This document shows, piece after piece, positions 1 to 17,153 of a stretch of 45,743 nt of DNA (position 1 is the stretch's first letter; the number at the start of each line of letters is the position of its first letter). The DNA comes from a virus. The DNA lies in the UHGV virus genome UHGV-0129770. One strand, 5' to 3'. Made by a program: the position numbers and the translations under genes. The notes under the pieces were generated by a model that did no database searches, was not told where the DNA came from, and saw only the letters and a program-made list of their open reading frames with translations.

Positions 1-93
1 TTCTTCTGCTGGCAGTACAACGTTGCTACCAGGTCCGTATGTTTCGCGCCACTGCTTGATTGTCAGTAGTCGCTCTTTGGTTATAGTGGTCAT
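1..93 (-). CDS. hypothetical protein, N-terminal fragment (gene runs off the window start)
   Basis: ATG at 93..91 overlaps (ATGA) the stop of the 90..299 ORF; reads MTTITKERLLTIKQWRETYGP...; absent from ORF track because truncated by window edge. Confidence 0.3.
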   Translation of the reverse strand, partial: MTTITKERLLTIKQWRETYGPGSNVVLPAEE

Positions 94-299
94 TTGTTAA
101 CCCTCAAAACTTTATGCCCGGGCGCAAAAGCACGCGTTTTGTCTTTGCTTATTCGCCAGCCATCCTTGCGCGCCTCTTTTGCACAGCCAGTCCATGACGT
201 ACCTATATACTCACCGAAGTCTGGCACTGGATATACACCTTCCGTGCACTGACGGCAGTCACAATAGAGATGCATTGTGTAACTTGCGGCAATAGCCAT
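90..299 (-). CDS. small Cys-rich hypothetical phage protein
   Basis: ORF track; member of contiguous minus-strand operon; paired Cys motifs (CDCRQC ... WTGC). Confidence 0.4.
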   Translation of the reverse strand: MAIAASYTMHLYCDCRQCTEGVYPVPDFGEYIGTSWTGCAKEARKDGWRISKDKTRAFAPGHKVLRVNK

Positions 300-300
300 A

Positions 301-765
301 TCACCCTCCTTTACCCTGAAGCATGGCGTCGCTCCGCTCTATACCATCCAGCGCGATTCGCAGTGCCTGAATTGTGGTAGTGCTATCGTTTGGGGCTATT
401 CCATATCGCTCGAATACAGCTAAATGGTTGCGCATAATCTCAGGCGTAAGCTCTTTGTAAGCATAAGCAAGAGGCTCTGATGCATTATCCGGCACAACCG
501 ACGCAGGCGCGGCAGCATAAACAGGAATAACGTCCGCTTGCTCTTTATTGCTTTCATCCGTTAAAGCCCAGAATAATTTCCCGGCCGGATGTTTGAAAAT
601 ATAAGCAACTGGTTCTGCACTATCAGCTTCGCGCCGCTTCTGTAGCTCTGCTGCCATTGCTCTCACGACTTCAACTGGTGCCCTTGCGGCAAACTCTATG
701 TTGGTGATCAGCTCATTAAGATATTGCTCGCTGGGATACTGTTTCTTATTGGTAATAGTGGTCAT
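301..765 (-). CDS. hypothetical phage protein
   Basis: ORF track; 1-nt gap to neighbours, same strand; no recognisable motif. Confidence 0.45.
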   Translation of the reverse strand: MTTITNKKQYPSEQYLNELITNIEFAARAPVEVVRAMAAELQKRREADSAEPVAYIFKHPAGKLFWALTDESNKEQADVIPVYAAAPASVVPDNASEPLAYAYKELTPEIMRNHLAVFERYGIAPNDSTTTIQALRIALDGIERSDAMLQGKGG

Positions 766-1277
766 GCCGCGTTTCCTTCTTTCTTATTAACAATTACACC
801 GTCATATATTTCATTAAGGTGCCCTCTCAACTCCATGCGCCTTAATGCAGATAACATGTAATCGCATTCAACCTGCTTATTTCCAGTAAATGGCTTATCG
901 TCAGGATTACCCCAACAGCAATTACCCTTGGGCCACCCATGTACTTTCCGTACTCTTCCGTTAACAACGTGAAGTAATCCCCAGCCAGGTGGTAAATCCT
1001 CAATTGAAATAATTCCCGGCTCACTAATAAAGAATCGCCAGTCGCCCATTCCAAGAGACGGATTTTTACGAAAACGCTTTTTTCTATCTGCCAACAAGTC
1101 AGCACGAGAACACTTCGCCTCTATCAGGCATGATGCTGAATTTCTGAATCCCATAGCATCTGGCTGTTCTCCGGTACTGGTTACAGCTATAAAGCGGTCA
1201 TGAAAACAAACCTTGAACCCGTTGCGCTTAAGGAACTTGTACGCAATCTGACAGAGTTCGCGGTGTGTTAACGCCAT
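762..1277 (-). CDS. hypothetical protein (possible nuclease-like fold, D...IEAK motif)
   Basis: ORF track frame 762..1349; start moved to in-frame ATG 1277..1275, which has an AAGGAG SD 6 nt upstream and directly abuts the stop of the 1279..1467 ORF. Confidence 0.4.
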   Translation of the reverse strand: MALTHRELCQIAYKFLKRNGFKVCFHDRFIAVTSTGEQPDAMGFRNSASCLIEAKCSRADLLADRKKRFRKNPSLGMGDWRFFISEPGIISIEDLPPGWGLLHVVNGRVRKVHGWPKGNCCWGNPDDKPFTGNKQVECDYMLSALRRMELRGHLNEIYDGVIVNKKEGNAA

Positions 1278-1278
1278 A

Positions 1279-1467
1279 TCACTCTCCTTTAGTGCGCAAG
1301 TGGTTTTTCCAGCGGTTTTGCGCCGCGCTGGGCTTTTTGCAAAAACCACAATCCATCATCCCGTAATATTTCATCAACCCCATCCGTCGGTTGCTGAGTC
1401 TCACCCACTGCCAGACGCCAGGAGCGTTTCTACGAACTAACAGAATCTTTGCTTTACGGTTTTTCAT
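1279..1467 (-). CDS. small basic hypothetical protein
   Basis: ORF track; ATGA start/stop overlap with an unlisted upstream 58-aa ORF (1464..1640), itself TAATG-coupled to the 1640..2434 gene. Confidence 0.3.
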   Translation of the reverse strand: MKNRKAKILLVRRNAPGVWQWVRLSNRRMGLMKYYGMMDCGFCKKPSAAQNRWKNHLRTKGE

Positions 1468-1639
1468 CGCTTTGCTCTCCTGCGTCTCTTTGCTGCTCGT
1501 CGTGCCGCTGCAATACCGGTATGGCGGCGCTTTGGTGCCGGGATGATGTTGTCAGCCATCAGGACATGTGGCTTTGCAATTAGCGCAGAAGCCCAAAAAC
1601 GAGTCGGGTACGGTAACAAGCCGATACATGCCACACGCA

Positions 1640-2434
1640 TTACTCACCTCCTTTGATGCGAATGCCTGCGGCGCGGATTGCAGCGATGACTTCAGAAACT
1701 TTGTATGCCATTACCGTTTGGTAATCATCGTGAAAATCTGTTCGATGAAGCATGCTGCTACGTTCCGGGAGCGATATTTCCCGAGCATCCAGTTCCTTAA
1801 CGCGTTCCTCCAGTTCGTAGACCCTGCATTGTTCTCTATCATCAATCAGATATAACCCAAGACATTCGCTTTCTACCCAACCGCCAAAATCATGATCGTA
1901 ACGCTCACATGAAAACTCACCGTCACCGTCCTTTGTTGGAATGGTGTAACTATCTAATGGGCCACCATATGTCGGCACATTTCCCAATGTTGGATGCTCA
2001 ATCCACATGAAAAATGCACGTCCGGTTATTGGGCAAATATCTGGCCGCCATTGGTTACGAACAGCCTTGGTTTCGGATAATTCTTCAGCGTGTTGTTTTA
2101 CTTCCTCAAGCTCAACTCTCAGCTTCCCTACCGTTAGCGCAATATCCTCGTTCTCCTGATCGCGGCGTTTTATGTATTGCTGGTTTCTTTCCCGTTCATC
2201 CAGTAGTGCCAAAGCAACCTTTGGGTTGAACGCGGCAACATAACGAGCGTTGTTCTCTGCATTTTTCTGTCCATCAAAGCCGGTCCATTTGATAACGTCT
2301 TCACATCGTTCATCACCGGGCGTGTGCACCGCATAAGTACCAGTATCCGTCGAAATAAATGCGACCCATTCGTCTGGTGTTGCCTTTTCTGCCGCCTCAC
2401 GCAGTACCTGATAGTCAATTGTCATTCTCGCCAT
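1640..2434 (-). CDS. Ea22-like modular phage protein, paralog 1
   Basis: ORF track; central coiled coil LTVGKLRVELEEVKQ and C-terminal ...IRAAGIRIKGGE tail shared with ORFs at 6878, 7516 and 8732. Confidence 0.5.
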   Translation of the reverse strand: MARMTIDYQVLREAAEKATPDEWVAFISTDTGTYAVHTPGDERCEDVIKWTGFDGQKNAENNARYVAAFNPKVALALLDERERNQQYIKRRDQENEDIALTVGKLRVELEEVKQHAEELSETKAVRNQWRPDICPITGRAFFMWIEHPTLGNVPTYGGPLDSYTIPTKDGDGEFSCERYDHDFGGWVESECLGLYLIDDREQCRVYELEERVKELDAREISLPERSSMLHRTDFHDDYQTVMAYKVSEVIAAIRAAGIRIKGGE

Positions 2435-3066
2435 CCTTCACAGTTGTAATCACGACAGCCTTCAAAATCATATGGGCTGTACTGCCAGGTGATTTTTCCG
2501 CAATGCGGACAATTCCAACGCACCTTCCCGCTTCGCGACTTCTTTCTTCTGTTCTGCTTTTTCAACCAGTCAGGCATGACCAAACCTGCGCCCTGAACCA
2601 TTGTTCTGCGGTTAAATTTATTGATATTGAACGTCCGGCGCTTTGCTGCATCAGCAATGGAAAATGGCAACCAAACTATTCCTGGTTCGTTTTTGTTGGC
2701 GACGCTAAAGATGGTCGCTTTACTGAAGTCATCTGTTGGCAATCCACCGTGTTGAAGCCAGTAAACATCGTTGCCGTTCCAGCTACCTTTTTTGTAGGCC
2801 ACATACGCAGTGCAATCTGACTCAATCAGGCTTTCTGTAGGGATGTACTGGCAATCAACGTGCCACACTGCCATTGCATCCACGCTATCCGCGCAAACAG
2901 GCTGATCGATATCTCGCCCACAATTCCAGGCTTTTTGGGCTTCTTCCAGCGTGTAAACATGAGCGCGATCGATATCAGAACTGTAACCATTGCCGTTATG
3001 GCAATGGAATGAGGCGTTATTACCCACAGTTTCACGCAAGCACATCAGGTAAAAGCGGTTATTCAC
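2422..3066 (-). CDS. hypothetical protein with C-terminal Cys-rich zinc-ribbon-like motif
   Basis: ORF track; C-terminus WNCPHCGK...CRDYNCEGW. Confidence 0.45.
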   Translation of the reverse strand: MNNRFYLMCLRETVGNNASFHCHNGNGYSSDIDRAHVYTLEEAQKAWNCGRDIDQPVCADSVDAMAVWHVDCQYIPTESLIESDCTAYVAYKKGSWNGNDVYWLQHGGLPTDDFSKATIFSVANKNEPGIVWLPFSIADAAKRRTFNINKFNRRTMVQGAGLVMPDWLKKQNRRKKSRSGKVRWNCPHCGKITWQYSPYDFEGCRDYNCEGWRE

Positions 3067-3343
3067 TGGTTGCCTCCGCTTCCCACGTTTTCAGACTTTC
3101 ACCACAGAACGGGCAAAATGAAACTCGAATAGGCGATTTAGAAAATTCACCAGACCGCAGCATGATCAGGTCTTGTGAATGAATTAATGCATGGTTATAG
3201 ATTTTGTATTTCAGCAGACCTTTTCGCGTCGTGTATTCAGCGTCATGCTCCAGGGATTGCGTCAACGCCGCGCACGGTTCTATCTTGTTGCCATTAATTT
3301 GGCATTTTGACTCACTCACTGGTTGCCCCCTGAATACGCTCAA
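3059..3343 (-). CDS. hypothetical protein
   Basis: ORF track; overlaps neighbours by a few nt in the operon. Confidence 0.35.
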   Translation of the reverse strand: MSVFRGQPVSESKCQINGNKIEPCAALTQSLEHDAEYTTRKGLLKYKIYNHALIHSQDLIMLRSGEFSKSPIRVSFCPFCGESLKTWEAEATSE

Positions 3344-4046
3344 ACTCGATTACCCACACCCAGGGATTAGCGTTCCAGCATTCTTCACCATAGATGGATT
3401 CCCACAGGCGCTGGAACGCAACCTTGGCCATTGCGAAATCTCCCTTGGGAGTTAGGAATGTTCCCGGGTGATCAGGAAGCAAACTTCCAGCAGGCTGAAC
3501 GCCCTCATCCCTTGCATCGCATTCGCTGATATCGTTCAACCGCTCAACGCGCACGTTGGTAATTTCCAACAGGATGCGTGATGCCCATCGCGGCATGTGA
3601 ATTGATGGACGCCACCCGCCATCAAACTTTTCATTCACAGTGTGAGGTTTCCAGTCGGCATCATCGGATATCGACCACAAACCGTAATCACCAGGCTTTT
3701 GCTCACAACTGGCCCGATAAATCCTTGCTGCGTTCTTCTCATCGCCACGACAAAGGTTGTCGTTCCAGTCCACACTGCAACCATCCTCATTGCCTAATAT
3801 CGCCCACGCCTCACGGACCCATATGCGATCACCAACGTTACCGAACGGGCATAAACCATGTTCAGGTGCATCCATAACGTGGGTATAGACACCATTGCGT
3901 TTCTTTGTCGGTTTACGGATAACTAGGCAGTTATCGGCCCTGACATTTTTTACAGGTCGGCGAGTCTGCGTCTTCCTTCCTTCGAGGATGGCCCTGACCA
4001 TCTCATCGTTAAAAATCATCCCACGTTCTTTCATTTTTTGATCCAC
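3312..4046 (-). CDS. hypothetical phage protein, possible ASCH-like domain
   Basis: N-terminal MIFNDEMVRAILEGRKTQTRR resembles the ASCH GxKxxxxR motif region; call from memory only. Confidence 0.35.
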   Translation of the reverse strand: MDQKMKERGMIFNDEMVRAILEGRKTQTRRPVKNVRADNCLVIRKPTKKRNGVYTHVMDAPEHGLCPFGNVGDRIWVREAWAILGNEDGCSVDWNDNLCRGDEKNAARIYRASCEQKPGDYGLWSISDDADWKPHTVNEKFDGGWRPSIHMPRWASRILLEITNVRVERLNDISECDARDEGVQPAGSLLPDHPGTFLTPKGDFAMAKVAFQRLWESIYGEECWNANPWVWVIEFERIQGATSE

Positions 4047-4050
4047 CTCA

Positions 4051-5046
4051 TCAGTTATTGAACGTGATCACTCCGCGCTCGATGGCGAAGTCAAAAAGCT
4101 GGTTAGCGGCTACGTAAAGGCGTATGCCATGTGCTTTTTCCCATGCCCGAACATCGTTTTCTGCGCTTCTGGCGCAGTCATCGCAAAGAGGAACAGCCCA
4201 GCGGTCGTGTTCGTTTAACGAGCGGGCGCGGTACATGAACGGGTGGTTAACTTTGCCACCGCATCCGATGCACGGACGAGAAACCACAAACCGGAGATAA
4301 GCCGGGCTTTTACCGAGGACCGCTTTTGGTCGGCGCATATAAAGCAGGCCGGAATCCTCATCTACAGACAGGTTGACGATCTGCTCTGCGGTTATGTCCA
4401 CCAGCTCGCGGGTACTGTGCTCCCAGGTGATATCTGATTCTTTCAGCGTACCGGTAGGGATTTCAGTTTTTGGCTGACAAAATGCAATGCGACCAGCTTC
4501 ATCAGGCAGTTCGTCTTTAAGATTCCGGCGAATGGCCCAAAAGGTGAGTTCAACCATGCTCAGATCGCGATCTGGCGGAAGTTTTAACTCGCTGGCAGCC
4601 CAGTTCATAATCCAGTTGGCGCGATTCCGTGACAGTTGGTCTTCCAGCTTGCCGTATCCCTTCATCATGTATTCCGCATCATGCTTCCAGCACAGGCGAA
4701 CGGCAGAACCGTTATAGAAATGGGTGGTTAGCTGGTGGCTGCAATCGCGCTTATCATGCGCCTGGCAATCGTGAATGTTGGTGCTAACCCAGTGAACGAG
4801 AGAATCCTCACCACCTAACGCGTTAAATACACGCTCACTTTGAAAAAAGGGTGCCAGTGACTGGTTGGCAACCAGTGAATAATTCAGGTCAACGACACCA
4901 TCAGGGGTGTTTTCAGCCTGTTCACGCGGCAATGGGGATATAAGAAAACGGCGTCCTGCGCCGATGTAATTGCTGGTGGGCTTATCTACAGGAAAGACAG
5001 CCACACCAGTTTCATTTACGACATATGGGGTGATTATTGCACTCAT
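4051..5046 (-). CDS. hypothetical protein with C-terminal Cys cluster (CIGCGG ... CDDC)
   Basis: ORF track; ATG at 5046..5044 checked in sequence; operator-like inverted repeat 45-70 nt upstream. Confidence 0.45.
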   Translation of the reverse strand: MSAIITPYVVNETGVAVFPVDKPTSNYIGAGRRFLISPLPREQAENTPDGVVDLNYSLVANQSLAPFFQSERVFNALGGEDSLVHWVSTNIHDCQAHDKRDCSHQLTTHFYNGSAVRLCWKHDAEYMMKGYGKLEDQLSRNRANWIMNWAASELKLPPDRDLSMVELTFWAIRRNLKDELPDEAGRIAFCQPKTEIPTGTLKESDITWEHSTRELVDITAEQIVNLSVDEDSGLLYMRRPKAVLGKSPAYLRFVVSRPCIGCGGKVNHPFMYRARSLNEHDRWAVPLCDDCARSAENDVRAWEKAHGIRLYVAANQLFDFAIERGVITFNN

Positions 5047-5089
5047 AATGCATACCGACTCTGTTTTGTTCCGATCGGTAAAATAATAT

Positions 5090-5117
5090 GTTAGAAAACT
5101 AAAATCAATGTTCTAAC
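5090..5117. promoter_or_regulatory. operator-like inverted repeat GTTAGA-N16-TCTAAC (site A)
   Basis: GTTAGA at 5090..5095, TCTAAC at 5112..5117, 16-nt spacer; same architecture at 10343 and 22242. Confidence 0.45.
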
Positions 5118-5143
5118 GTGATTTGAGTGCGTAAATGATTTGA

Positions 5144-5836
5144 TCAGACTTTAAGCTGCCCTCCCTTCACCTGCATTAGCGTCAGATTTCCGCAAAAAAC
5201 CGCGCCCGTGTCTATGTAGTGCTGATTCCAGTATGCTTTTGGTCTTCGTACCGGTGTGTGCCCAAAGATAAAGCGATCTGCGCCTGTGATTTCTCCACCA
5301 ATGCCATCTATCGAATCACCGACGCGACTGCGCGACCAGACAACATCAAAAAACGACACATCCTTACCGAACTGGTACTCTCCACCTGGATAGTCGGCAT
5401 GGGCTATAACGATAGTTTCATGCCCGGTGTTCAACTCAATGATATATGGCAGACGCTTTACCAGCTCCACCAGCGCCTTGGCTAATATTTCCTGATCAGT
5501 GCCCAGCATGAAGAACCATTGTCCGCCATTAATTAGCCAGTTATTCACGTTGCCATCAGGACTTAACGCATCAAGCATCAACCGCTCATGGTTCCCCATT
5601 ACTGCCCTGAACCAGGGCATCTGCAATAGTTCCAGACATTCGACATTTTCAGTACCGCGATCGATAAGGTCGCCAACCGATATCAGTAAATCCTGCGCCG
5701 GGTCAAAATCCACACGATGGAGTTCGGACATCAGTCTGGTGTAGCAACCATGCAGATCACCAACAACCCATATGTTTCTGTAGCCAGAACCATCAATACG
5801 GCTATATAAATTCACTTCATGCATAGTCTGGATCAT
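5144..5836 (-). CDS. serine/threonine protein phosphatase, lambda-type metallophosphoesterase
   Basis: Motifs GDLHG, GDLIDRG and GNHE; start set to ATG 5836..5834, which overlaps (ATGA) the stop of the upstream ORF. Confidence 0.85.
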
Positions 5837-6144
5837 GCGGCAACCTTCTCCCGCAGCCAGATACAAACTGGACCATCTTCAGTGTCATGAATAGAGCCAA
5901 CAAACCAGCCTTCACCCTCTGGTCGCTCCGGTTCCCAGGCGGCAATATCGGGACCAGCTGCGTCCAGATCAAAATCATCTTCATCCATACTGCGAATAGT
6001 CCACTGAAGATTATTTTCCTTCATCCAGGCGTCAAATTCCTCAGTGGAAATATATTCACGACCTGCGCAAAACTTCTCATACTCCGGATGTGTCCAGCAG
6101 CCATATTCATCACGTTCTACCGGCATTTCTTTAATGATGCTCAC
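5833..6144 (-). CDS. hypothetical acidic protein
   Basis: ORF track; GTG start at 6144 checked; coupled to the phosphatase gene. Confidence 0.4.
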
Positions 6145-6365
6145 TCTTCATCCTCCAAGTCGGCAACGGCCTCCATCACATCAGAACCGCGAATAACCTC
6201 AAAAGCACGGCAGGCCATTTCAAACACCTGTTGTTCTTGCGGATGCGGTGACTCCCAATACTTAAAACCAGGTCGATGCTCGTAACCCATCATGGAATAA
6301 AAATCGCCAGCAAGTTCAATCGCGGCATCAACAAGTTCGCGATTTGTCATCGTCTGTTCTGTCAT
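6141..6365 (-). CDS. hypothetical protein
   Basis: ORF track; operon context. Confidence 0.35.
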   Translation of the reverse strand: MTEQTMTNRELVDAAIELAGDFYSMMGYEHRPGFKYWESPHPQEQQVFEMACRAFEVIRGSDVMEAVADLEDEE

Positions 6366-6636
6366 TTGGTTTCTCCTGTCTGAACATCACTATCATCAGG
6401 TCGCCTTTTATCGCTATTCTGGCTGTTGTGCCTGGTTCAATGCGGCTAAGTTCAAATGCGTCATAGAACGCTTCTAATGCCTTCTGGCGTAGTTCCTGTT
6501 TGCGCCGTTTTTTCCACTCTTTTAGGAAAATGGAACCCAGCCATCGCCAGGTACGGGACATGATGTAAAGCCAACCGAGAAGTGCCAGACCGGTATTTAG
6601 GGCCGTATCGATCGTTATCGTGGTGTCGATATTCAC
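6328..6636 (-). CDS. hypothetical membrane-associated protein
   Basis: ORF track; hydrophobic stretch LALLGWLYIM; overlaps neighbour start, so its own start is uncertain. Confidence 0.35.
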   Translation of the reverse strand: MNIDTTITIDTALNTGLALLGWLYIMSRTWRWLGSIFLKEWKKRRKQELRQKALEAFYDAFELSRIEPGTTARIAIKGDLMIVMFRQEKPNDRTDDDKSRTC

Positions 6637-6881
6637 TGTGGTGGCTCCTGCTTTTCTGCCTTTAATACCATGCGAGAACCATCATCCAGCTCCCAATTAA
6701 TTTCACCGCCTTCAGCCATGACTAGATGCCAAACGAGTTGTGCGGCCTCGTTGGTTACATCACGACCGCGATCATTGCCGACACGACGTTTTGTTCCATC
6801 CCCTAAGTCACGCATTTTTGCCAACACGATGGTTTTTGATAGCGGTGAAAAACCAAGCTGTAGTCGTGCGGTATTACTCAC
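6633..6881 (-). CDS. hypothetical protein
   Basis: ORF track; operon context. Confidence 0.35.
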   Translation of the reverse strand: MSNTARLQLGFSPLSKTIVLAKMRDLGDGTKRRVGNDRGRDVTNEAAQLVWHLVMAEGGEINWELDDGSRMVLKAEKQEPPQ

Positions 6882-7519
6882 TGTTTGCCTCCTTTTCGAA
6901 GCTGGTCAGCGAACCTATCAGCTGCATCCGCGCAAGCAGAAGCAACGGAATCAAAAAATGGATCATCTCCGGTATCGCGCATCGTCAAAGCGAATGCCTC
7001 CACCCCTTGTGCCTGTATTTCTACAAGGTATGCCTTAGATGTAGTGCTTTTCGCCTCGCCTAATTCGTTATGAGCGATGTTCGCTATACATGCGATGTCT
7101 ATATCTGGATGATTAATTGGGCAATGGCTAAGAATTGCCTCAAGTGCTGCTTTTTTGCTTTGGCATTCCGCCACCATCGCCCCGCAATTGCTTTCATATT
7201 CGGCAATACGCTGTTTAGCAGCCTCCAGCTCAACACGCAGCTTCTCAAGCGTTAGAGCCATCTCCATGTTCTCTTCCAGCAGTTCAATCACATCAGGATC
7301 GCTATCATCAACTACTGTTATGCGCGATTTTTTGTAATGCTCGTCAGCATAAGTTCGTCCAGTTTTGAAGCATCCGTCGTCCTCCATGCCGGAACAGGCA
7401 TAAACAACATGTGATCCAGATATGCGCTGCATTGACATTTCCTCGCCACAAACAGAGCATTTAGGCGCTGGTTTCGGTGAAAAACGTTCACGTAACGTCT
7501 GATAGTAAAGCTCGCTCAC
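6878..7519 (-). CDS. Ea22-like modular phage protein, paralog 2 (N-terminal Cys4 ribbon)
   Basis: CSVCGEE...YACSG ribbon, coiled coil LTLEKLRVELEAAKQRIAE, C-terminal ADQLRKGGKQ. Confidence 0.5.
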   Translation of the reverse strand: MSELYYQTLRERFSPKPAPKCSVCGEEMSMQRISGSHVVYACSGMEDDGCFKTGRTYADEHYKKSRITVVDDSDPDVIELLEENMEMALTLEKLRVELEAAKQRIAEYESNCGAMVAECQSKKAALEAILSHCPINHPDIDIACIANIAHNELGEAKSTTSKAYLVEIQAQGVEAFALTMRDTGDDPFFDSVASACADAADRFADQLRKGGKQ

Positions 7520-8316
7520 TGGCTGCCTCCTTTGCGAAGCTGTTCAGCGATATCTTCGAGAACACCATCAGAGAATGAGCGGTCAAAATCGCCTTCCCGC
7601 GCATTAGCCATAAACTCAGTAGAGGTAAGAATCATCCGGGCAATATCCGCGGCGTTCTTCGCAGTATCATCAATAAAACCAGCTTCCCAGGCAGCCAGCA
7701 TTCTATTCGCCACAAAGTAAGCGCCCTCCTTGCGTGCTTCAGTCTTCACTTCATCCAGGAAAGTGTCGGTCGCAGGAGTGGTTTTTTGTGGTGATAGGGC
7801 GATACGAATTGTTTCAAGAGCTGGATCTATTTCCACTGTTGGCACCTTGATAAAACCAAGCTGCACGCCATTCATAATGAACGTGCGGCGATCCTCACAT
7901 ATCGCCTTCAGTCTCGCATTCTCCGCAGCCAGCGCCGCGCGATTACCCTCCAGCTCTGCAATGCGCTGTTTTGCGGTATCAAGTTCAATCGATAATTTTT
8001 CCAACTGCTCTTGATGCTTCTTGTATTCCTGATATGCGTGCCAGGACTGACCTTTGCGCACACTATCAGTAATATCAGTAATCTGTTCTGGTGTTAGCGT
8101 GGTCAGTGGCTGTGCTGGGAAAATCAGCACTTTCCCGGAATCCCAATCAAAACCAGCGTGAATTGACTGAACCTCAACTGAGGGTGTTGAACCAATGCTG
8201 CCAGGCGAATGAACAACGATCGTTACATCCATATCGCGACGATGGCTGTGGTTGTTGGACAAAATACGATTCAACAAAATACGATTCACCAACTCAGAAA
8301 ATTTGGAGAATTTCAT
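7516..8316 (-). CDS. Ea22-like modular phage protein, paralog 3
   Basis: C-terminal module TPATDTFLDEV...AEQLRKGGSQ is paralogous to the 8732..9220 product; start set to ATG 8316 (GAGG 6 nt upstream) rather than TTG 8328. Confidence 0.5.
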   Translation of the reverse strand: MKFSKFSELVNRILLNRILSNNHSHRRDMDVTIVVHSPGSIGSTPSVEVQSIHAGFDWDSGKVLIFPAQPLTTLTPEQITDITDSVRKGQSWHAYQEYKKHQEQLEKLSIELDTAKQRIAELEGNRAALAAENARLKAICEDRRTFIMNGVQLGFIKVPTVEIDPALETIRIALSPQKTTPATDTFLDEVKTEARKEGAYFVANRMLAAWEAGFIDDTAKNAADIARMILTSTEFMANAREGDFDRSFSDGVLEDIAEQLRKGGSQ

Positions 8317-8324
8317 GCGGAGCC

Positions 8325-8735
8325 TCAATATGCAAAATAGACCGTTGCCACGCCGTTATAGTGATCAAACGATACGGCGTTTACTTCATAACTGGCCGGG
8401 AGCTTCGAGCCAAGAACGTATCCGGGCCACGTTTTCCATGGAATTTCTCTATTCTCACTACCCCCATATACCGTACATCCAAGTGAACCTACAGCTTCAT
8501 TAGAACGCGTGCCGCACGTTATGAATCCCAGATTTTGCTTACTGCTCTTAATGGTGATTGAGTGAACGCTGGCTGATGCATTAGCAGCACGCTGTGCCTG
8601 TTGGTTTGCGATATTCGCAGAGTTCGCAGCAGCTACAGCAGCCGTAGTCGCGGCGGTAGAGGCTACAATAGCTGCTGAAGCATGCACTTGTTGGATATTC
8701 ACCAACAATGCCGCGACAAAAATCATCTTCTTCAC
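8325..8735 (-). CDS. exported hypothetical protein (signal peptide, Ala/Thr-rich)
   Basis: N-terminus MKKMIFVAALLVNIQQVHASAA is signal-peptide-like; nested between Ea22-like paralogs. Confidence 0.5.
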   Translation of the reverse strand: MKKMIFVAALLVNIQQVHASAAIVASTAATTAAVAAANSANIANQQAQRAANASASVHSITIKSSKQNLGFITCGTRSNEAVGSLGCTVYGGSENREIPWKTWPGYVLGSKLPASYEVNAVSFDHYNGVATVYFAY

Positions 8736-9220
8736 TTGTCAGCTCCTTTGCGAATCTGTTCCGCCCATTCTTCAAGGGATTTCTCCGCATATTCACCGGA
8801 CAGGCCATCAATCGGGTGCGGTTCATTAGCCAACTCTTCTTTCGCTGACAGAATCATGCGTGTAACGTCGAAAACTTCACGTAAAGACTTATTGATAAAT
8901 CCGTGGTTGAAAGCAGCAGCAAGACGGCTTGCGGTATAGTTAATCCCCTCGTTGCGAGCCTCCGCACGAATTTCAGCCAGAAAAGCATCGGTGGCTGGAG
9001 TTTCGCTGTGGTGCAGGGCATCGTTGATAATCATTGCAGCAACTCCGGCCTGCCCTGCATCCGTGACCGACACATGCTCAAGAGTTACAGCCATTGCATG
9101 TTTCAGCCCAGCATTCTCCGCCGCCAGCGCCGAGCGTTCTTTCTCAAGTCGGGAAATTTCCGTTACATACTCAGCGTTACGCTCTGCCAGTTGTGCTGGC
9201 GTTAAACCTTCAGACTTCAT
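8732..9220 (-). CDS. Ea22-like modular phage protein, paralog 4
   Basis: TPATDAFLAEIRAEARNEG...WAEQIRKGADK parallels paralog 3. Confidence 0.5.
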   Translation of the reverse strand: MKSEGLTPAQLAERNAEYVTEISRLEKERSALAAENAGLKHAMAVTLEHVSVTDAGQAGVAAMIINDALHHSETPATDAFLAEIRAEARNEGINYTASRLAAAFNHGFINKSLREVFDVTRMILSAKEELANEPHPIDGLSGEYAEKSLEEWAEQIRKGADK

Positions 9221-9527
9221 GTACTCTCCTTTCGAAATAAACGTACTGATTAATCATGCTCAAGGGCATTTCGAGTTTTTCTGCGATCTCACGGCGGGGA
9301 ACACCACACCGATGAAGCTGCCGTGCCAGTTCTATATCGCCCTGCCGGTATTTGGCTGACGGGTGAAAGTCTCCTTTCAGAATCATGCAGATCCGCAGTT
9401 GCCGCGCTTTGGTTCTGACAGCACTACCGGTACGCCCGATCAGCCTCCCAATACTCACGACTGTCATAGTCCCGGCGCACTGGCGGAGTATCATGATTTC
9501 CGCCCTTCCCCATCCCCGCCAGCTCAC
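9210..9527 (-). CDS. hypothetical protein, possible DNA-binding
   Basis: ORF track; basic helix-rich C-terminal half. Confidence 0.35.
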   Translation of the reverse strand: MSWRGWGRAEIMILRQCAGTMTVVSIGRLIGRTGSAVRTKARQLRICMILKGDFHPSAKYRQGDIELARQLHRCGVPRREIAEKLEMPLSMINQYVYFERRVHEV

Positions 9528-10147
9528 GCTGACATCCTCTGAGACATAAACTCCACAAAACGAACTGCATCTTCAGAAACAACGCCGCATGACTTCAGAT
9601 AATTCATTGCGTCATTAGGTAGCGGATTAGTTGGTTCGGCATTTGCCAGGGATTGAGATAAACGCGTGATTAATTTGACCATTCTCCGCTGCCGGAGGTT
9701 GTATCCTTCAACCAAAGACAGGTAACTGGAAAGGGTTTTGCTTAAGCGGGCGCGAAGCTGATCCGTGCCGTGACATTCAATAGCAACATCACGTAACGCA
9801 TTTACCAGTTCACGGTAAATATGCGGAGCAACCTGGCATTCAATGTTGGTTTGTGACTCATAAATTACAGTCAGCCCCAGCTTTTCAGCCAGCGCGTGCT
9901 CTGCGCGAGCACCAACCGATTCTTCCCATTGATTGAGCAGATAGATCGCATCAGCAGAACGCACCATTGCCAGGCAAATATCCATGTATTCACTCTGGCA
10001 AAGGCCACCAGGTAACACAGCTGGATTCAGAACGATATGCCCTTCAGACATCAGCTCGCTCGCTTTCGCATTAAACGCCGCACGGTTGTAGTCTGGATAA
10101 CCAGTCATCGGCCCCGCGATGTAAATTTTCAAAACACGTTTCACCAT
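9524..10147 (-). CDS. phage protein with N-terminal nucleoside 2-deoxyribosyltransferase-like (DUF4406-type) domain
   Basis: KIYIAGPMTG...NRAAF...LNP motif; start moved from TTG 10174 to ATG 10147, which overlaps (TGATG) the stop of an upstream small ORF. Confidence 0.45.
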   Translation of the reverse strand: MVKRVLKIYIAGPMTGYPDYNRAAFNAKASELMSEGHIVLNPAVLPGGLCQSEYMDICLAMVRSADAIYLLNQWEESVGARAEHALAEKLGLTVIYESQTNIECQVAPHIYRELVNALRDVAIECHGTDQLRARLSKTLSSYLSLVEGYNLRQRRMVKLITRLSQSLANAEPTNPLPNDAMNYLKSCGVVSEDAVRFVEFMSQRMSA

Positions 10148-10299
10148 CAAAATTTCCCCAAAATCGTGACGCAAAACATAAGCACTGCGAAAAGCTCAAT
10201 ACCAAGCTCAAGTAGCGCCAACGCCCCGAAAAACAACACATAGAACAGGCCAATCTCATTCACAGATGGCTGGTGGATCGCACTTAAAGCTATAAGCAT
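10147..10299 (-). CDS. small hydrophobic protein (50 aa), unlisted ORF
   Basis: Own translation: MLIALSAIHQPSVNEIGLFYVLFFGALALLELGIELFAVLMFCVTILGKF; GGAGGA SD upstream; stop overlaps the start of the DUF4406-like gene. Confidence 0.4.
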   Translation of the reverse strand: MLIALSAIHQPSVNEIGLFYVLFFGALALLELGIELFAVLMFCVTILGKF

Positions 10300-10342
10300 C
10301 ATGTCCTCCAAACATTTATCAGTGATGATATTAATGTTTTGT

Positions 10343-10370
10343 GTTAGAAAATCAATTTTGAATATCTAAC
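10343..10370. promoter_or_regulatory. operator-like inverted repeat GTTAGA-N16-TCTAAC (site B), upstream of the ref-like gene
   Basis: GTTAGA 10343..10348, TCTAAC 10365..10370; lies 50 nt upstream of ATG 10420. Confidence 0.45.
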
Positions 10371-10419
10371 CATTTTGATCAATCATAGAAAAATCGTTGA
10401 AAAGTAAGAGACTGCCATC

Positions 10420-10998
10420 ATGCAGAAACAGAGTTATTGGGAGAAACAGAGACAAAAAGCCATGCAAAAATTGGCTGACCCGGCCTGGCGAGAGGAACAA
10501 AGGGCAAAGCGCCTTCAACAAGCTCAACGCCAGCAGCAGCGAGCGAGAGAAAAGGCCGCATCGCCTGAATATCGGCAAAAGAAAAATGAAAAAGCAAAGC
10601 AATATGAACAGCGGAGAAAAGATAAAGCTGTATCCGCTCCGTCCAAAAAAACACGCACGTCACGCGGCCTGAAAGGCAGATCACTCACAGCCGATGAACG
10701 CCGGATACAGACCGCTATCGGTGCTCTCCCCTGCATTGCCTGCCATATTCACGGGCAACATAGCCCAGTGGTATCCCTGCACCATATCTTCGGGAGAACG
10801 GCAGAGAACGCGCATAAATATGTCCTCCCTTTGTGTAAATGGCACCACCAGTACGCAGCGCCAGCCGAGGTCCGAGAACAATATCCCTGGCTGGTCCCTG
10901 TTCATGCTGACGGAAAAATAGGCGGAAAAGCAGATTTCATGCGGCACAATGCCGATGAAATGACGTTGTATCAGATGGCGATTGAATTGATAAATTAG
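10420..10998 (+). CDS. Ref-like recombination enhancement protein (HNH-type nuclease)
   Basis: Basic low-complexity N-terminal half, then ALPCIAC...HHIFGRTA...LPLCKWHHQ...YPWLVPVHADG, an HNH/zinc-binding pattern I recall for P1 Ref; from memory. Confidence 0.55.
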   Translation: MQKQSYWEKQRQKAMQKLADPAWREEQRAKRLQQAQRQQQRAREKAASPEYRQKKNEKAKQYEQRRKDKAVSAPSKKTRTSRGLKGRSLTADERRIQTAIGALPCIACHIHGQHSPVVSLHHIFGRTAENAHKYVLPLCKWHHQYAAPAEVREQYPWLVPVHADGKIGGKADFMRHNADEMTLYQMAIELIN

Positions 10999-11508
10999 TT
11001 TTCTAACATTTTAAGTTGAATTGTAAATTTCTCCGATGTACATTCACTACCGATTGGCACACCGGTCAACTTTTTGAGACAAACTGTTTAGTTTTTCGTA
11101 TTATTGCCGCCGTCATACCTATGGCGGTGCAATATAGGTGGCTGAAAAGCCCCCGTTGACTCACGGTGTTCCAGCCTTTATTGCGCCGCCACCAGACCGT
11201 GGAACAGTCGATGGCGGCTCCGAAAGCAAGGAGTCACTACACTATGAACAACTACAGTCTTTTCCCATCACTCGTCGTCCACCACTCACGCGATAATCTG
11301 CATTCTTTACTCGCGTCGGGGGTGTCAAAATGACTGTTCGCTACCTCAACTTTCAAATCCAGAACATCACTGGCGGTTGCTATGACTGGTTTGTCACTCT
11401 CGGAAAAGAAGTGATCACCGGGAAGCTGGATGAAGTGAAAGTTAAAGCAATGGCCTACGCCTGCAAGCAAGCCCGGAAGAAATCCGCCAAAGCATAAAAT
11501 ACTGACTG

Positions 11509-11543: not shown

Positions 11544-11623
11544 GGCACCTTAGAAAAACGGGTGCCGGGATTGGAACCCCGGATAATGTCAAAGGCGACA
11601 CAGACGCCGAAAGCGTCTTTTTT
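11544..11623 (+). ncRNA. candidate c4-like antisense regulatory RNA (about 80 nt)
   Basis: Three hairpins: CGGCACC/GGTGCCG; CCGGG-loop AUUGGAAC-CCCGG; AGACGC-cgaa-GCGTCT followed by a T-run at 11618..11623. The loop is complementary to GTTCCAA at 11726..11732 in the downstream leader. Confidence 0.4.
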
Positions 11624-11808
11624 GTGTCATGCCATCGCACAGCCATACGTAGCGTTTAGCTCAGAGATCAATGGTAGTGCTGGCTGGGCTGCCGAAAGGC
11701 AGGCCGGTTCCCTTTGACGCCGGTAGTTCCAACCCAGTCAGTGCTACCGCCATTGAGATTGGAACCTCACGCGGTAGCTCCTTAACTTAGTCAAAGGAGG
11801 CTGCCAAT

Positions 11809-12024
11809 ATGGCTACTATCCCTACCCCAACTCATTCTGAATTTATCTGGCGTTTCTATTCCTGCCAAAAACACCTGTATATCTGCGTCATGGCTGCTAC
11901 CGAAGCAGAGGCGCGCTCATACCTTCCCGAAGAACCCTGCATTTTTGCTGCTCGCTTCACTCTTGATGCGATGGAGATCCTCAATTACTGGAATCTGCCG
12001 ATGAACTGCGTGGAGGCGCACTGA
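11809..12024 (+). CDS. Icd-like small protein (cell-division-inhibitor-like)
   Basis: 71 aa; AAGGAGG SD at 11794..11800; stop overlaps (TGATG) the start of the antirepressor gene; matches the c4-icd-ant layout. Confidence 0.45.
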   Translation: MATIPTPTHSEFIWRFYSCQKHLYICVMAATEAEARSYLPEEPCIFAARFTLDAMEILNYWNLPMNCVEAH

Positions 12025-12950
12025 TGAATCTGTCCATCTCTCAAAAAGCGACAATGACCAGCATTGAGATCGCGGAACTGGTAGGTAAGCGCCCTGATAA
12101 CGTTAAACGCACCATTGAACACCTGGCGGAACGGGGCGTAATATCTTTTCCTCAAATTGAGGAAAAGCCCACCGCAGGCCGCCCGGCGAGCTATTACGTC
12201 TTCGAAGGCGAGCAAGGCAAACGAGACAGCATTATTGTCGTTGCGCAGCTCTCTCCCGAATTCACCGCCCGGCTGGTGGACCGCTGGCGCGAACTGGAGA
12301 ATGCCCGGGTACAGTTAAAATCAAAAGCCGAAATTCTGGCTGAAATGGCGCAAATGCATCTTGAGCATGAACGCCGGATCAACGCCGTAAATGCCCAGGT
12401 AGCCGAGGTATCAGCACAAGTATCGATGGTCGCTGAAACACTCGAGCAAATCAAGAAAGGCAATATGCCGGAAGGTTACATTGGCTACCGCCAGCTGGCG
12501 GCGAAATGTGGCCTGACTGAAGCCAAATGTCGCAACCTGGTTAACGCTTTCCGGATTCCCACCGATACGCATGAGTTTTTAACTCCAGAGGGTTTGCTTG
12601 CGCGACGCTCCATTGTGGCCCTGGCCCCCTTCCGGAAAGCCTTTAAGCAGGTGATGTCGGAGGCAGAACCACGCAATAAACGCTGGTATCATCCAAAGAT
12701 GGGGATGTTTCAGGCAATCCACCATCCTGTGCCTGAAAGCCCAAAGGATAATCTGTCACTACATACCGTCAGAGAGAAGATCAGGACTGGATACGCAACA
12801 GTGTGTCGTCGTTCTTCCTGGCCTGAAGGTATATGGGTGTGGCCCGAAGGTGGATCACGAAAGCACTGGCGCACCATCCGTGACGGGAAAATCCATGCTA
12901 TTGATTTAGCTCCAGAGGATGTTATTGCTATGGACTGGATTGTTAGTTAA
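12024..12950 (+). CDS. Rha-family phage regulatory protein / putative antirepressor
   Basis: N-terminus MTSIEIAELVGKRPDNVKRTIEHL matches the Rha N-terminal domain as I recall it; followed by hairpin ATCCCCGGCG-ac-GCCGGGGAT at 12958..12978. Confidence 0.55.
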   Translation: MNLSISQKATMTSIEIAELVGKRPDNVKRTIEHLAERGVISFPQIEEKPTAGRPASYYVFEGEQGKRDSIIVVAQLSPEFTARLVDRWRELENARVQLKSKAEILAEMAQMHLEHERRINAVNAQVAEVSAQVSMVAETLEQIKKGNMPEGYIGYRQLAAKCGLTEAKCRNLVNAFRIPTDTHEFLTPEGLLARRSIVALAPFRKAFKQVMSEAEPRNKRWYHPKMGMFQAIHHPVPESPKDNLSLHTVREKIRTGYATVCRRSSWPEGIWVWPEGGSRKHWRTIRDGKIHAIDLAPEDVIAMDWIVS

Positions 12951-17147: not shown

Positions 17148-17153
17148 GGGCTT

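What the first reader, a model, noticed from the sequence alone, without database searches (positions are those of the whole stretch)
1640..9220. Array of four mosaic Ea22-like paralogs within one operon
ORFs 1640..2434, 6878..7519, 7516..8316 and 8732..9220 share a coiled-coil block (L-T-x-x-K-L-R-V-E-L-E...) and a conserved C-terminal tail (..QLRKGG..) but carry different N-terminal modules, one with a Cys4 ribbon. Paralogs 3 and 4 also share a TPATD(A/T)FL...ARxEG module. A signal-peptide protein is nested between them. This modular shuffling suggests a rapidly diversifying family, possibly host-interaction or anti-defence functions.
Basis: seen in the sequence. Interest (0 to 1): 0.45.

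Follow-up and report, generated by a model that had tools for sequence, protein, structure and literature searches.

The report
Mosaic Ea22/EaE accessory genes, phage-plasmid
Four neighbouring genes in a P1/D6-like phage-plasmid are ordinary, already-annotated members of the mosaic Ea22/EaE accessory proteins of lambda- and P22-like phages, built from swappable modules around a coiled coil; their "conserved tail" is mostly the ribosome-binding site of the next gene.

Summary
The four minus-strand ORFs exist as described, but they are not four paralogs of one family. A (1640-2434) is a true Ead/Ea22 protein (Pfam PF13935, 113 bits; a 100% identical protein is already annotated). C and D are relatives of P22 EaE, not of Ea22, and do not match PF13935. 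B is an Ead/EaE chimera. Profiles of the Ead and EaE groups show no detectable homology (hhalign probability 2%); B alone links them.

Module shuffling is real. Among 282 full-length homologs, 11 N-terminal clusters and 14 C-terminal clusters occur in 28 combinations. Breakpoints sit at short conserved blocks: the Ead core, ALAAENAGLK and TPATDAFLAE.

The shared "..RKGG.." tail is encoded by an invariant AAAGGAG. This is the Shine-Dalgarno site of the next, overlapping gene, so it is a DNA-level constraint and not evidence of protein homology.

The setting is a P1/D6-like phage-plasmid, not a lambdoid prophage; the B-C-SP-D block is 98.6% identical to plasmid pDEC12A-1. Ea22 mosaicism and several variants per genome are already published.

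Function is inferred only: non-essential coiled-coil oligomers with exchangeable heads, as for lambda and Stx-phage Ea22, which favour lysogeny. There is no evidence for an anti-defence role. Interest is low.

The parts
1640..2434 (-). Gene A, 264 aa: a bona fide Ead/Ea22-like protein
   Evidence: Pfam PF13935 at 113.5 bits against a cut-off of 27, residues 5-122. 34% identity to lambda Ea22 over 214 aa, E 3e-23, and 50% to phiV10 p48. A 100% identical protein is annotated 'ead/Ea22-like family protein' (P0121).
2096..2212 (-). A, aa 75-113: Ead core / coiled-coil block (LLDERERNQQYIKRRDQENEDIALTVGKLRVELE), an island of conserved DNA
   Evidence: 85-99% nucleotide identity to lambda, P22 eaD, phiV10 p48, pDEC12A-1 and D6 genes, whose flanking 102 nt are at a random level of 0.25-0.45. 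It is one of the few segments of gene A shared with pDEC12A-1, at 91%.
1796..2095 (-). A, aa 114-213: beta-rich cassette inserted between the coil and the tail domain
   Evidence: Absent from the pDEC12A-1 Ead gene, which joins the coil directly to the tail domain. Invariant among A-type homologs. AF2 predicts strands, but at low confidence.
1643..1795 (-). A, aa 214-264: C-terminal helical segment ending in the Ead-type tail AGIRIKGGE
   Evidence: 93.5% nucleotide identity to the pDEC12A-1 Ead gene. The tail is shared with lambda Ea22, P22 EaD and phiV10 p48.
1648..1654 (-). AAAGGAG inside the tail of A: Shine-Dalgarno site for the overlapping downstream ORF 1464-1640 (TAATG)
   Evidence: The same junction and downstream ORF occur in phiV10 (p48 followed by p49).
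1464..1640 (-). 58-aa ORF translationally coupled to A
   Evidence: Start overlaps the stop of A. The sequence just downstream of phiV10 p48 is identical over the stretch shown and lies at the annotated p49 position; a 58-aa gene is also called at this position in L007.
6878..7519 (-). Gene B, 213 aa: an Ead/EaE chimera (Ead-type N-half with Cys-rich insert, coiled coil, short EaE-type C-terminal module and tail)
   Evidence: Pfam PF13935 at 49.6 bits. hhalign against the Ead profile 92% (B 82-123) and against the EaE profile 97.6% (B 88-172). A 99% identical protein is annotated ead/Ea22-like.
7364..7465 (-). B, aa 19-52: putative zinc-ribbon insert, CxxC-x17-C-x7-C
   Evidence: C21, C24 and C42 are conserved in 108-111 of 120 homologs; C50 in only 41.
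6889..6895 (-). AAAGGAG inside the tail of B: Shine-Dalgarno site for the DUF7446 gene 6633-6881 (GTGA overlap)
7516..8316 (-). Gene C, 266 aa: EaE-like protein (own N-module, coiled coil, linker cassette, TPATD junction, long EaE C-terminal module)
   Evidence: No Pfam Ead hit. 55% identity to P22 EaE, E 5e-49. phrog_368, 6026 and 14548. 97% identical homologs are annotated 'hypothetical'.
7861..8043 (-). C, aa 92-152: long helix / coiled coil including AKQRIAELEGNRAALAAENARLK
   Evidence: AF2 predicts one helix over residues 92-152, with pLDDT about 79-91 for residues 101-140. Heptad a/d positions are 62% hydrophobic against a 37% background. The EaE profile cross-hits designed coiled-coil peptides in the PDB.
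7720..7779 (-). C, aa 180-199: junction block TPATDTFLDEVKTEARKEGA
   Evidence: Invariant or nearly invariant P-A-T-D-x-F-L-x-E in the EaE alignments. Cassette breakpoints in homologs flank it.
7527..7533 (-). AAAGGAG inside the tail of C: Shine-Dalgarno site for gene B (GTGA overlap)
8325..8735 (-). 136-aa signal-peptide ORF between D and C; a moron-like insert, not a family member
   Evidence: phrog_8805 at 7e-86, no Pfam hit. Present in pDEC12A-1 and absent from D6. Found in only 5 phage records.
8732..9220 (-). Gene D, 162 aa: the minimal EaE-like protein (coil, linker, TPATD junction, long EaE C-terminal module)
   Evidence: 69% identity to phiV10 p46 'eae-like', 34.5% to P22 EaE (E 4e-23) and 37% to C (E 1e-21). 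No Pfam hit.
8945..9001 (-). D, aa 74-92: junction block TPATDAFLAEIRAEARNEG
   Evidence: D6 orf91 is 95% identical in DNA to D up to this block and then switches to a different short C-terminal module. By my reading of the table, many representative hits end at D residue 88 or start at residues 67-75.
8743..8749 (-). AAAGGAG inside the tail of D: Shine-Dalgarno site for the signal-peptide ORF (GTGA overlap)
90..10311 (-). Long leftward accessory gene string that holds all four genes. It also carries a small hydrophobic ORF, DUF4406, an HTH-like ORF, DUF7446, DUF4752, Ppp phosphatase and DUF968/PdcB-like genes. It runs off the left end of the window.
   Evidence: About 20 co-directional ORFs, mostly with overlapping stop and start codons and only two gaps of about 100 nt. 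Pfam assignments. Terminator-like sites no more frequent than in shuffles. Collinear with pDEC12A-1 and D6.

Best explanation
What they are. The four ORFs belong to the mosaic 'ea-region' accessory proteins of lambdoid and P22-like phages. Here they sit in the long leftward accessory operon of a P1/D6-like phage-plasmid. A is an Ead/Ea22 protein, C and D are EaE-type proteins (relatives of P22 EaE), and B is an Ead/EaE chimera.

Architecture (shown). Each protein has the same layout: an interchangeable N-terminal module, a leucine-zipper-like coiled coil, an optional linker cassette, an interchangeable C-terminal module, and a short tail.

How the genes evolve (shown). Modules are swapped between phages, prophages and phage-plasmids at short conserved blocks. 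For three of them the DNA itself is conserved: the 102-nt Ead core, the ALAAENAGLK heptads and the 3' tail. The TPATDAFLAE junction is conserved at the protein level. The genes were not made by local duplication.

The tail (shown at sequence level). The conserved tail is primarily the Shine-Dalgarno site AAAGGAG of the next, translationally coupled gene.

How the proteins work (inferred from published work on lambda and Stx-phage Ea22; about 0.3 confidence). They would be non-essential, early-expressed oligomers. The coiled coil would provide tetramer or dimer assembly, and the variable end modules would provide partner specificity, biasing the element toward lysogeny or plasmid carriage and host survival.
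For: Family assignment:
- Pfam PF13935 matches A and B only.
- D and C match P22 EaE, ES18 gp43 and phiV10 p46.
- A matches lambda Ea22, P22 EaD and phiV10 p48.
- P22 itself carries EaE and eaD in one PL operon.
- hhalign: Ead against EaE 2%; B against each, 92% and 97.6%.

Shuffling:
- P0113 is the C N-module with the D C-terminal module. P0114 is an Ead N-module with the C C-terminal module. P0100 and D6 orf91 carry the same short C-terminal module on C-type and D-type N-halves.
- 11 N-clusters and 14 C-clusters occur in 28 combinations. The Cys-rich N-module of B occurs with 12 C-terminal types, and tail class follows the C-terminal cluster.
- The Ead core is 85-99% identical in DNA between genes with random-level flanks.
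- The pDEC12A-1 Ead gene shares little with A beyond the core and the tail segment.
- By my reading of the table, representative hits break at D residues about 70-88.

Not local duplicates: within the window the genes share only 22-52-nt patches.

Tail as ribosome-binding site:
- AAAGGAG lies 6-9 nt before an overlapping GTG or ATG start in all four genes.
- The residue after K-G varies (G, A, V, E), but its codon always starts with G, which preserves GGAG.
- Of 8 AAAGGAG sites on this strand in 1-10400, six were checked against start codons and lie directly upstream of one.
- The unrelated gene 301-765 has the same ending.

Coiled coil: AF2 predicts long helices, with high confidence in C, and heptad occupancy is above background.

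Function by analogy: lambda Ea22 is tetrameric, its C-terminal domain is dimeric, it is pro-lysogenic and mosaic, and up to three variants occur per genome (PMC10834534, PMC7093339). It is non-essential by CRISPRi (PMC10695390).
Against: - No experiment addresses any of these four proteins, or any EaE-type protein.
- The pro-lysogenic phenotype was measured in integrating lambdoid phages, not in a plasmid prophage, and its mechanism is unknown even there.
- The alignments used for the profile comparison are shallow (Neff about 1.9), so very remote Ead-EaE homology cannot be excluded. PHROGs places all four in phrog_368.
- The tail may also have a protein-level role. It is retained in lambda ea22 although the downstream start there is dead, and residues upstream of the AAAGGAG (IRI, AEQL) are also conserved.
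- Structure models were too poor (mean pLDDT 51 and 56) to test domain folds.
- Operon status and timing of expression are inferred from gene arrangement only.
Confidence: 0.8

Rival explanations
1. The four genes are a true paralog array, made by tandem duplication inside this operon and then diverged rapidly under diversifying selection.
For: All four hit phrog_368. C and D share a 153-aa module at 37% identity. The genes lie close together on one strand.
Against: - DNA similarity within the window is limited to 22-52-nt patches.
- D is much closer to phiV10 p46 (69%) and C to P22 EaE (55%) than they are to each other.
- Related plasmids carry other module combinations at the same positions.
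- The Ead and EaE profiles are not detectably homologous.
- Diversity among homologs falls into discrete identity classes produced by cassette swaps, with invariant stretches in between.
Confidence: 0.07
2. The variable end modules are anti-defence or host-takeover effectors (decoys, inhibitors or sensors), presented on an oligomeric scaffold and diversified by an arms race with host immunity.
For: - The combinatorial variety of end modules is very high.
- The genes sit in a non-essential accessory operon beside other small accessory genes: Ppp phosphatase, DUF968/PdcB-like, a methyltransferase in relatives, and Ref.
- Some homologs carry DUF551. That domain is reported in YfdS and in a phage enzyme that counters restriction (PMC10834534).
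Against: - No member has a demonstrated anti-defence activity in the literature searched.
- PADLOC gave no hit, although that library holds defence proteins, not anti-defence proteins.
- Published phenotypes concern the lysis-lysogeny balance.
- Yeast two-hybrid surveys found no partner for lambda Ea22 (PMC10834534).
- This reading is compatible with the best explanation and is not exclusive of it.
Confidence: 0.15
3. The shared segments are low-complexity or coiled-coil coincidences, and the genes are unrelated.
For: A-C, A-D and B-D are not significant pairwise. The Ead against EaE profile comparison aligns only a heptad stretch, at 2% probability. The tail is explained by a ribosome-binding site.
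Against: A-B, B-C and C-D are significant. Pfam, PHROG and BLAST matches to named phage proteins are strong: 1e-32 for Pfam and 1e-49 to 1e-63 for BLAST. The same modules recur at more than 90% identity in other architectures.
Confidence: 0.03

Closest known systems
Lambda Ea22 and the Stx-phage Ea22 variants V1-V3 (Pfam PF13935 / InterPro IPR025153, Ead_Ea22; PDB 8DSX for the lambda C-terminal domain)
   Same: A, and the N-half of B, share the N-terminal motif (I/N)YQALREAAEKA and the core LLDERERNQQYIKRRDQENEDIALTVGKLRVELE. A also shares the tail GIRIKG(G)E. The layout is the same three-part one: N-region, coiled coil, variable C-terminal domain. The published mosaicism and several variants per genome also match (PMC10834534).
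   Different: The C-terminal cassette of A is unrelated to the solved lambda C-terminal domain (no PDB hit). The host element is a P1/D6-like plasmid prophage, not an exo-xis region driven by pL. B carries a Cys-rich insert and an EaE-type C-terminus. C and D do not belong to this family.
P22 EaE (with ES18 gp43, the phiV10 p46 'eae-like protein' and epsilon15 Eae-like protein)
   Same: C (55% identity, E 5e-49) and D (34.5% to P22 EaE, 69% to phiV10 p46) share the ALAAENAxLK coil, the TPATDAFLAE junction, the helical C-terminal module and the tail AxQ(L/I)RKGxxx.
   Different: C has an extra N-terminal module of about 90 aa (phrog_6026) and a linker cassette that is also found in phiV10 p46. 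EaE has no Pfam family, no solved structure and no known function.
P22 ea region: EaE, orf45, eaF, eaD in the PL operon
   Same: An EaE-type and an Ead-type gene lie in one early accessory operon, separated by small ORFs, each translationally coupled to the next gene through a stop/start overlap.
   Different: This window has two EaE-type genes, a chimera and, about 4.4 kb further on, an Ead gene, interspersed with P1/D6-type genes (ppp, a pdcB-like DUF968 gene).
Variable accessory region of P1, P7 and D6 phage-plasmids (P7 upf88.3; D6 orf91, orf92 and orf100)
   Same: Same genomic position and neighbours (ppp, pdcB-like gene, DUF4406, ref). The B-C-SP-D block is 98.6% identical to pDEC12A-1. 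RefSeq already labels the D6 and P7 genes ead/Ea22-like.
   Different: No complete E. coli genome or phage record covers 80% or more of window 1400-9600 in one place. This particular combination of cassettes is one mosaic among many.

Membership tests
Ead/Ea22 (Pfam PF13935) | Score above the Pfam gathering threshold (27 bits) for Ead_Ea22 | tested here: met
   Met by A (113.5 bits, residues 5-122) and B (49.6 bits, residues 2-124). Not met by C or D, which give no hit at E up to 0.01. Membership therefore holds for A and B only.
Ead/Ea22 (Pfam PF13935) | Conserved core ...QQYIK.RDQE.EDIALTVGKLRVELE and N-terminal (I/N).YQALRE motif | tested here: met
   A has both, and the core is identical to that of lambda. 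B has YYQTLRE and a partial core (ENMEMALTLEKLRVELE). C has only LEKLSIELD, and D has neither.
Ead/Ea22 (Pfam PF13935) | Ead-type C-terminal tail (A/T)GI(R/K)(I/V)KG(G)E | tested here: met
   A ends AGIRIKGGE, like lambda, P22 EaD and phiV10 p48. B, C and D carry the EaE-type tail instead.
Ead/Ea22 (functional definition from lambda and Stx phages) | Tetrameric protein with a dimeric C-terminal domain; deleting it favours lytic growth (a pro-lysogenic role) | not testable with these tools
   Known only from PMC10834534 and PMC7093339. AF2 monomer models here were of low confidence.
EaE-like (P22 EaE; no Pfam model) | Significant full-length similarity to P22 EaE and phiV10 p46, including the TPATDAFLAE junction and the helical C-terminal module | tested here: met
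   C against P22 EaE: 55% over 160 aa, E 5e-49. D against phiV10 p46: 69%, E 3e-63. D against P22 EaE: E 4e-23. B matches the EaE profile only over residues 88-172. A does not match.
Single superfamily uniting Ead and EaE (as in phrog_368) | Detectable homology between the Ead and EaE profiles outside the chimeras | tested here: not met
   hhalign of A2 against A3 gives probability 2.2% and E 0.02, with only a heptad stretch aligned. The alignments are shallow, so this is weak negative evidence. All four do hit phrog_368.
Zinc-ribbon (Cys4) domain in B | Four conserved metal-binding Cys in two knuckles | tested here: inconclusive
   B has C21-x2-C24 ... C42-x7-C50. Three Cys are conserved in 108-111 of 120 homologs, and the fourth in only 41. 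No structure model was made for B.
Known anti-phage defence systems (PADLOC) | Match to any PADLOC-DB model | tested here: not met
   No hit for A-D, the signal-peptide ORF or five neighbouring genes.

The most novel reading that the evidence does not exclude
Neighbouring proteins share heptad blocks pairwise: A-B share LTxxKLRVELE, B-C share AKQRIAE(L/Y)E, and C-D share ALAAENAxLK. They also appear to be co-translated from one operon. They might therefore form mixed coiled-coil oligomers, so that one phage-plasmid builds a combinatorial set of multi-headed complexes. The conserved heptad DNA would then serve both as the recombination site for cassette exchange and as the assembly code. Nothing here tests this. 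The evidence does not exclude it, but it does not favour it either.
Probability: 0.08. Interest if true: 0.55.

Novelty: new member of a known kind. Interest (0 to 1): 0.2.

Why it matters
It matters little beyond annotation. The result corrects the label: there are two families plus a chimera, not four Ea22 paralogs. It shows that lambdoid and P22 'ea' cassettes circulate through P1/D6-like phage-plasmids. It also gives a concrete caution: a conserved C-terminal peptide motif in tightly packed phage operons can be the footprint of the next gene's ribosome-binding site and should not be read as protein homology. The shuffling pattern (28 combinations of 11 N-clusters and 14 C-clusters) could help anyone trying to find the still unknown partners of Ea22-type proteins, because it marks the coiled coil as the constant scaffold and the end modules as the specificity elements.

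Tried and rejected
- Structure route. AlphaFold2 on A and on C, with alignments of 15 and 14 homologs, gave mean pLDDT 51 and 56. Only the C coiled coil was confident. I therefore ran no fold search, since matches to such models would be meaningless.
- PDB by sequence. There was no hit for A or C alone. [quoted passage not shown] The EaE profile gives only coiled-coil cross-hits.
- NCBIfam gave no model for any of the five proteins. PADLOC gave none.
- The weak Pfam hits of C (phage scaffold, TSC22, BRE1) are below threshold, and I rejected them as generic coiled-coil cross-matches.
- Lambdoid prophage context was rejected. The window carries Ref, a C4 antisense RNA/immI region, Rep3, ParM and a Dmt-like methylase, and it matches P1, P7 and D6 and plasmids of about 90 kb.
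- The P1 C1-operator consensus ATTGCTCTAATAAATTT has no match within 3 mismatches. No sigma-70 consensus promoter was found upstream of the operon. Regulation and timing therefore remain unknown.
- Literature. I found nothing on EaE function and nothing linking Ead/Ea22-like proteins to defence. The D6-like plasmid population paper does not discuss this region. The P1 genome paper is not held.

Full report
**1. What is in the sequence**

The four ORFs exist on the minus strand as described:
- A, 1640-2434, 264 aa
- B, 6878-7519, 213 aa
- C, 7516-8316, 266 aa
- D, 8732-9220, 162 aa

A 136-aa ORF with a signal-peptide-like N-terminus (8325-8735) lies between D and C. All five sit in a string of about 20 co-directional ORFs running from about 10311 down past position 90. 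Most have overlapping stop and start codons, and only two gaps reach about 100 nt. Terminator-like sites are no more frequent than in shuffled sequence: 16 found against 11.6 +/- 3.3 expected. A single operon is therefore plausible but not shown.

**2. Genomic setting**

The window is not a lambdoid prophage. It matches P1, P7 and D6-type phage-plasmids and E. coli plasmids of about 90-97 kb. Window 4049-11000, which includes B, C, the signal-peptide ORF and D, is collinear with plasmid pDEC12A-1 at 98.6% identity. Phage D6 matches at about 94% but lacks C and the signal-peptide ORF.

The rest of the window fits this setting. It carries:
- Ref
- a C4 antisense RNA/immI region followed by a Rha/Ant gene
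- a fused Dcm-Dam methylase
- ParM
- a Rep3 initiator with adjacent 22-bp repeats

A protein 100% identical to A is encoded on P1-type plasmids, in a gene string that also holds ppp, pap, hot, humD, phd/doc, a pdcB-like gene and lpa. No complete E. coli genome or phage record covers 80% or more of window 1400-9600 in one place. That already points to a mosaic region.

**3. Are the four proteins related?**

Pfam Ead_Ea22 (PF13935) matches A (113.5 bits) and B (49.6 bits) but not C or D. All four hit phrog_368.

Pairwise BLASTP gives a chain, not a clique:

| Pair | Result |
|---|---|
| A-B | 58% over a 26-aa coil block |
| B-C | 28% over 162 aa, E 6e-9 |
| C-D | 37% over 153 aa, E 5e-22 |
| A-C, A-D, B-D | not significant |

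A tblastn search of D against phages finds P22 EaE, ES18 gp43, the phiV10 p46 'eae-like protein' and Stx phages. Against named phage proteins:
- C is 55% identical to P22 EaE (E 5e-49).
- D is 69% identical to phiV10 p46.
- A matches lambda Ea22 (34% over 214 aa, E 3e-23), phiV10 p48 (50%) and P22 EaD.

P22 itself carries EaE, orf45, eaF and eaD in its PL operon.

A profile of six Ead proteins against a profile of nine EaE proteins gives hhalign probability 2.2%. B matches the Ead profile over residues 82-123 (92%) and the EaE profile over residues 88-172 (97.6%).

So A is Ead/Ea22, C and D are EaE-like, and B is a chimera that links the two groups. The alignments are shallow, so very remote common ancestry is not excluded.

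**4. Module shuffling**

Homolog architectures show clean cassette exchange:
- P0113: the C N-module and coil with the D C-terminal module.
- P0114: an Ead N-module with the C C-terminal module.
- P0100 and D6 orf91: the same short C-terminal module (QGVEMFAE...ELRKGGNQ) on C-type and D-type N-halves respectively.
- P0077: a long extra linker cassette.
- phiV10 p46: the C-type linker joined to the D-type C-terminal module.

I took 282 full-length homologs from the three searches and clustered the first 60 residues and the 60 residues before the tail. This gave 11 N-clusters and 14 C-clusters in 28 combinations. The Cys-rich N-module of B occurs with 12 C-terminal types. Tail class (Ead or EaE) strictly follows the C-terminal cluster. 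The sample is biased toward relatives of A, B and C.

An exhaustive search with D found only 417 clusters at 50% identity (E up to 1e-3) among 1.84 billion representatives. By my reading of the table, many hits cover only D residues about 20-88 or only about 67/75-160. They overlap on TPATDAFLAEIRA, residues 74-88.

**5. DNA breakpoints**

Within the window the four genes share only short patches:
- A-B: 52 nt at 79%
- B-C: 35 nt at 89% (the tail)
- C-D: 35 nt at 86% (ALAAENA) and 22 nt at 91% (the tail)

So there has been no recent duplication.

Other breakpoints point the same way:
- The 102-nt Ead core is 85-99% identical between A, lambda, P22 eaD, phiV10 p48, pDEC12A-1 and D6 genes. Their flanking 102 nt are at random-level identity.
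- The pDEC12A-1 Ead gene shares with A the core (91%), the last 51 codons (93.5%) and a short 47-nt 5' patch (83%). The 100-aa beta-rich cassette of A (1796-2095) is replaced there.
- D6 orf91 is 95% identical to D for its first 300 nt and switches right after the TPATD junction.

These are the short conserved islands at which homologous recombination would be expected to exchange cassettes. That step is inference. The TPATD block of C and D is conserved as protein but not detectably as DNA, which suggests a protein-level role for that block.

**6. The 'conserved tail'**

In all four genes the tail is encoded by ...CG(N)(ATC)AAAGGAG(G)..., and the AAAGGAG lies 6-9 nt before the overlapping start of the next gene:

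| Gene | Overlap | Next gene |
|---|---|---|
| A | TAATG | ORF 1464-1640 |
| B | GTGA | DUF7446 gene, 6633-6881 |
| C | GTGA | gene B |
| D | GTGA | signal-peptide ORF |

Across these genes and lambda ea22, P22 EaE, phiV10 p46 and p48 and the pDEC12A-1 Ead gene, the residue after K-G varies (G, A, V, E). Its codon always starts with G, which preserves GGAG.

There are 8 AAAGGAG sites on this strand in 1-10400. Six were checked against start codons and lie directly upstream of one. These include the site in the unrelated gene 301-765, which also ends ..KGG*.

The tail is therefore chiefly an embedded Shine-Dalgarno site for translational coupling, and probably also a 3' recombination boundary. 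It is not independent evidence of protein homology.

Two tail classes exist. GIRIKG(G)E travels with Ead-type C-terminal modules, and (A/E)Q(L/I)RKGGxQ with EaE-type modules. Lambda ea22 keeps AAAGGAGAGTGAG although the downstream start is dead (ATC, where pDEC12A-1 has ATG). Inheritance or some protein-level role may therefore also contribute.

**7. Other claims in the finding**

- Cys4 ribbon in B: present in B itself. Only three Cys are conserved in 108-111 of 120 homologs; the fourth is C in 41, Y in 40 and D in 30. This is inconclusive.
- Signal-peptide ORF: phrog_8805, no Pfam hit, and found in only 5 phage records. It looks like a moron-like insert. It is present in pDEC12A-1 and absent from D6.

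**8. Structure and function**

AF2 models were poor (A mean pLDDT 51; C mean 56). The exception is the long helix of C, residues 92-152, with pLDDT about 79-91 for residues 101-140. I ran no fold search on these models. Heptad a/d positions are enriched in hydrophobic residues in all four coils.

The literature establishes the following for lambda Ea22:
- It has an N-region, a coiled coil and a C-terminal domain.
- It is tetrameric, with a dimeric C-terminal domain.
- It is non-essential.
- It favours lysogeny, by an unknown mechanism.

By analogy, and at about 0.3 confidence, A-D are oligomeric scaffolds that carry exchangeable partner-binding modules and tune the lysogeny or carriage decision of the phage-plasmid. 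I found no evidence for or against an anti-defence role.

**9. Verdict**

The genes are already annotated. A is identical and B 99% identical to 'ead/Ea22-like family protein' entries, and C is 97% identical to 'hypothetical protein' entries. The phenomenon is published for Ea22.

The modest additions from this analysis are:
- C and D are EaE-type, not Ea22-type.
- B is a chimera of the two groups.
- The tail is explained by a ribosome-binding site.
- These cassettes also circulate in P1/D6-like phage-plasmids.

Noticed in passing
window 8259-8292 (inside gene C): A 15-bp tandem duplication (2.3 copies, 94% match) gives VNRILLNRILSNN where the common 261-aa homologs have VNRILSNN. This is a 5-aa in-frame duplication specific to this copy.
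   Followed up: partly
window 25510-27171 (-): A full-length class I Glu/Gln-tRNA-synthetase-like ORF of 553 aa sits on a phage-plasmid: catalytic domain 1.5e-129 plus both anticodon-binding domains.
   Followed up: no
window 11545-11754 (+): Rfam matches to isrK (11545-11623, 62.7 bits) and C4 antisense RNA (11667-11754, 77.1 bits). This is a P1/P7 immI-type immunity region just upstream of a Rha/Ant-like ORF at 12024-12950.
   Followed up: partly
window 40490-41355: A Rep3-type replication initiator (40490-41278, -) lies next to 3.9 copies of a 22-bp repeat (41270-41355), probably iterons. ParM is at 28995-29975.
   Followed up: no
window 45605-45743: A 75-bp tandem repeat (1.9 copies, 98% match) runs off the right end of the window.
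   Followed up: no
window 17001-18000: A low-GC island (32.5% against about 48% elsewhere) contains ORF 17154-17882 (-, 242 aa), which has no Pfam hit.
   Followed up: no
window 10147-10420: A small hydrophobic 54-aa ORF (10147-10311, -) with a strong GGAGG Shine-Dalgarno site opens the operon. A 13-nt inverted repeat (10343-10370) lies in the divergent region toward ref. There is no P1 C1-operator match.
   Followed up: partly
P0118 (homolog of C); window about 7870 and 6850: One database protein fuses C residues 1-150 to the DUF7446 protein at a shared QLGF microhomology. This implies a deletion that removes the rest of C and all of B.
   Followed up: partly
L004 4147-4845 (phiV10 p48); L002 3595-4242 (D6 orf100): One recurrent Ead-type C-terminal cassette carries a Walker-A-like motif, VVVSGFTGCGKS, within a segment of only about 70 aa.
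   Followed up: no
L005 about 1030-1050 (lambda, downstream of ea22): Lambda ea22 keeps the AAAGGAGAGTGAG tail and ribosome-binding site, but the downstream start seen in pDEC12A-1 (ATG) is ATC in lambda. Lambda therefore looks like a degenerate version of a formerly coupled gene pair.
   Followed up: partly
window 301-765 (-) and 90-299 (-): An unrelated 154-aa ORF also ends ..LQGKGG*, encoded by AAAGGAGGG just before the ATG of the next ORF. This shows that the ..KGG tail recurs wherever genes are coupled in this operon.
   Followed up: yes
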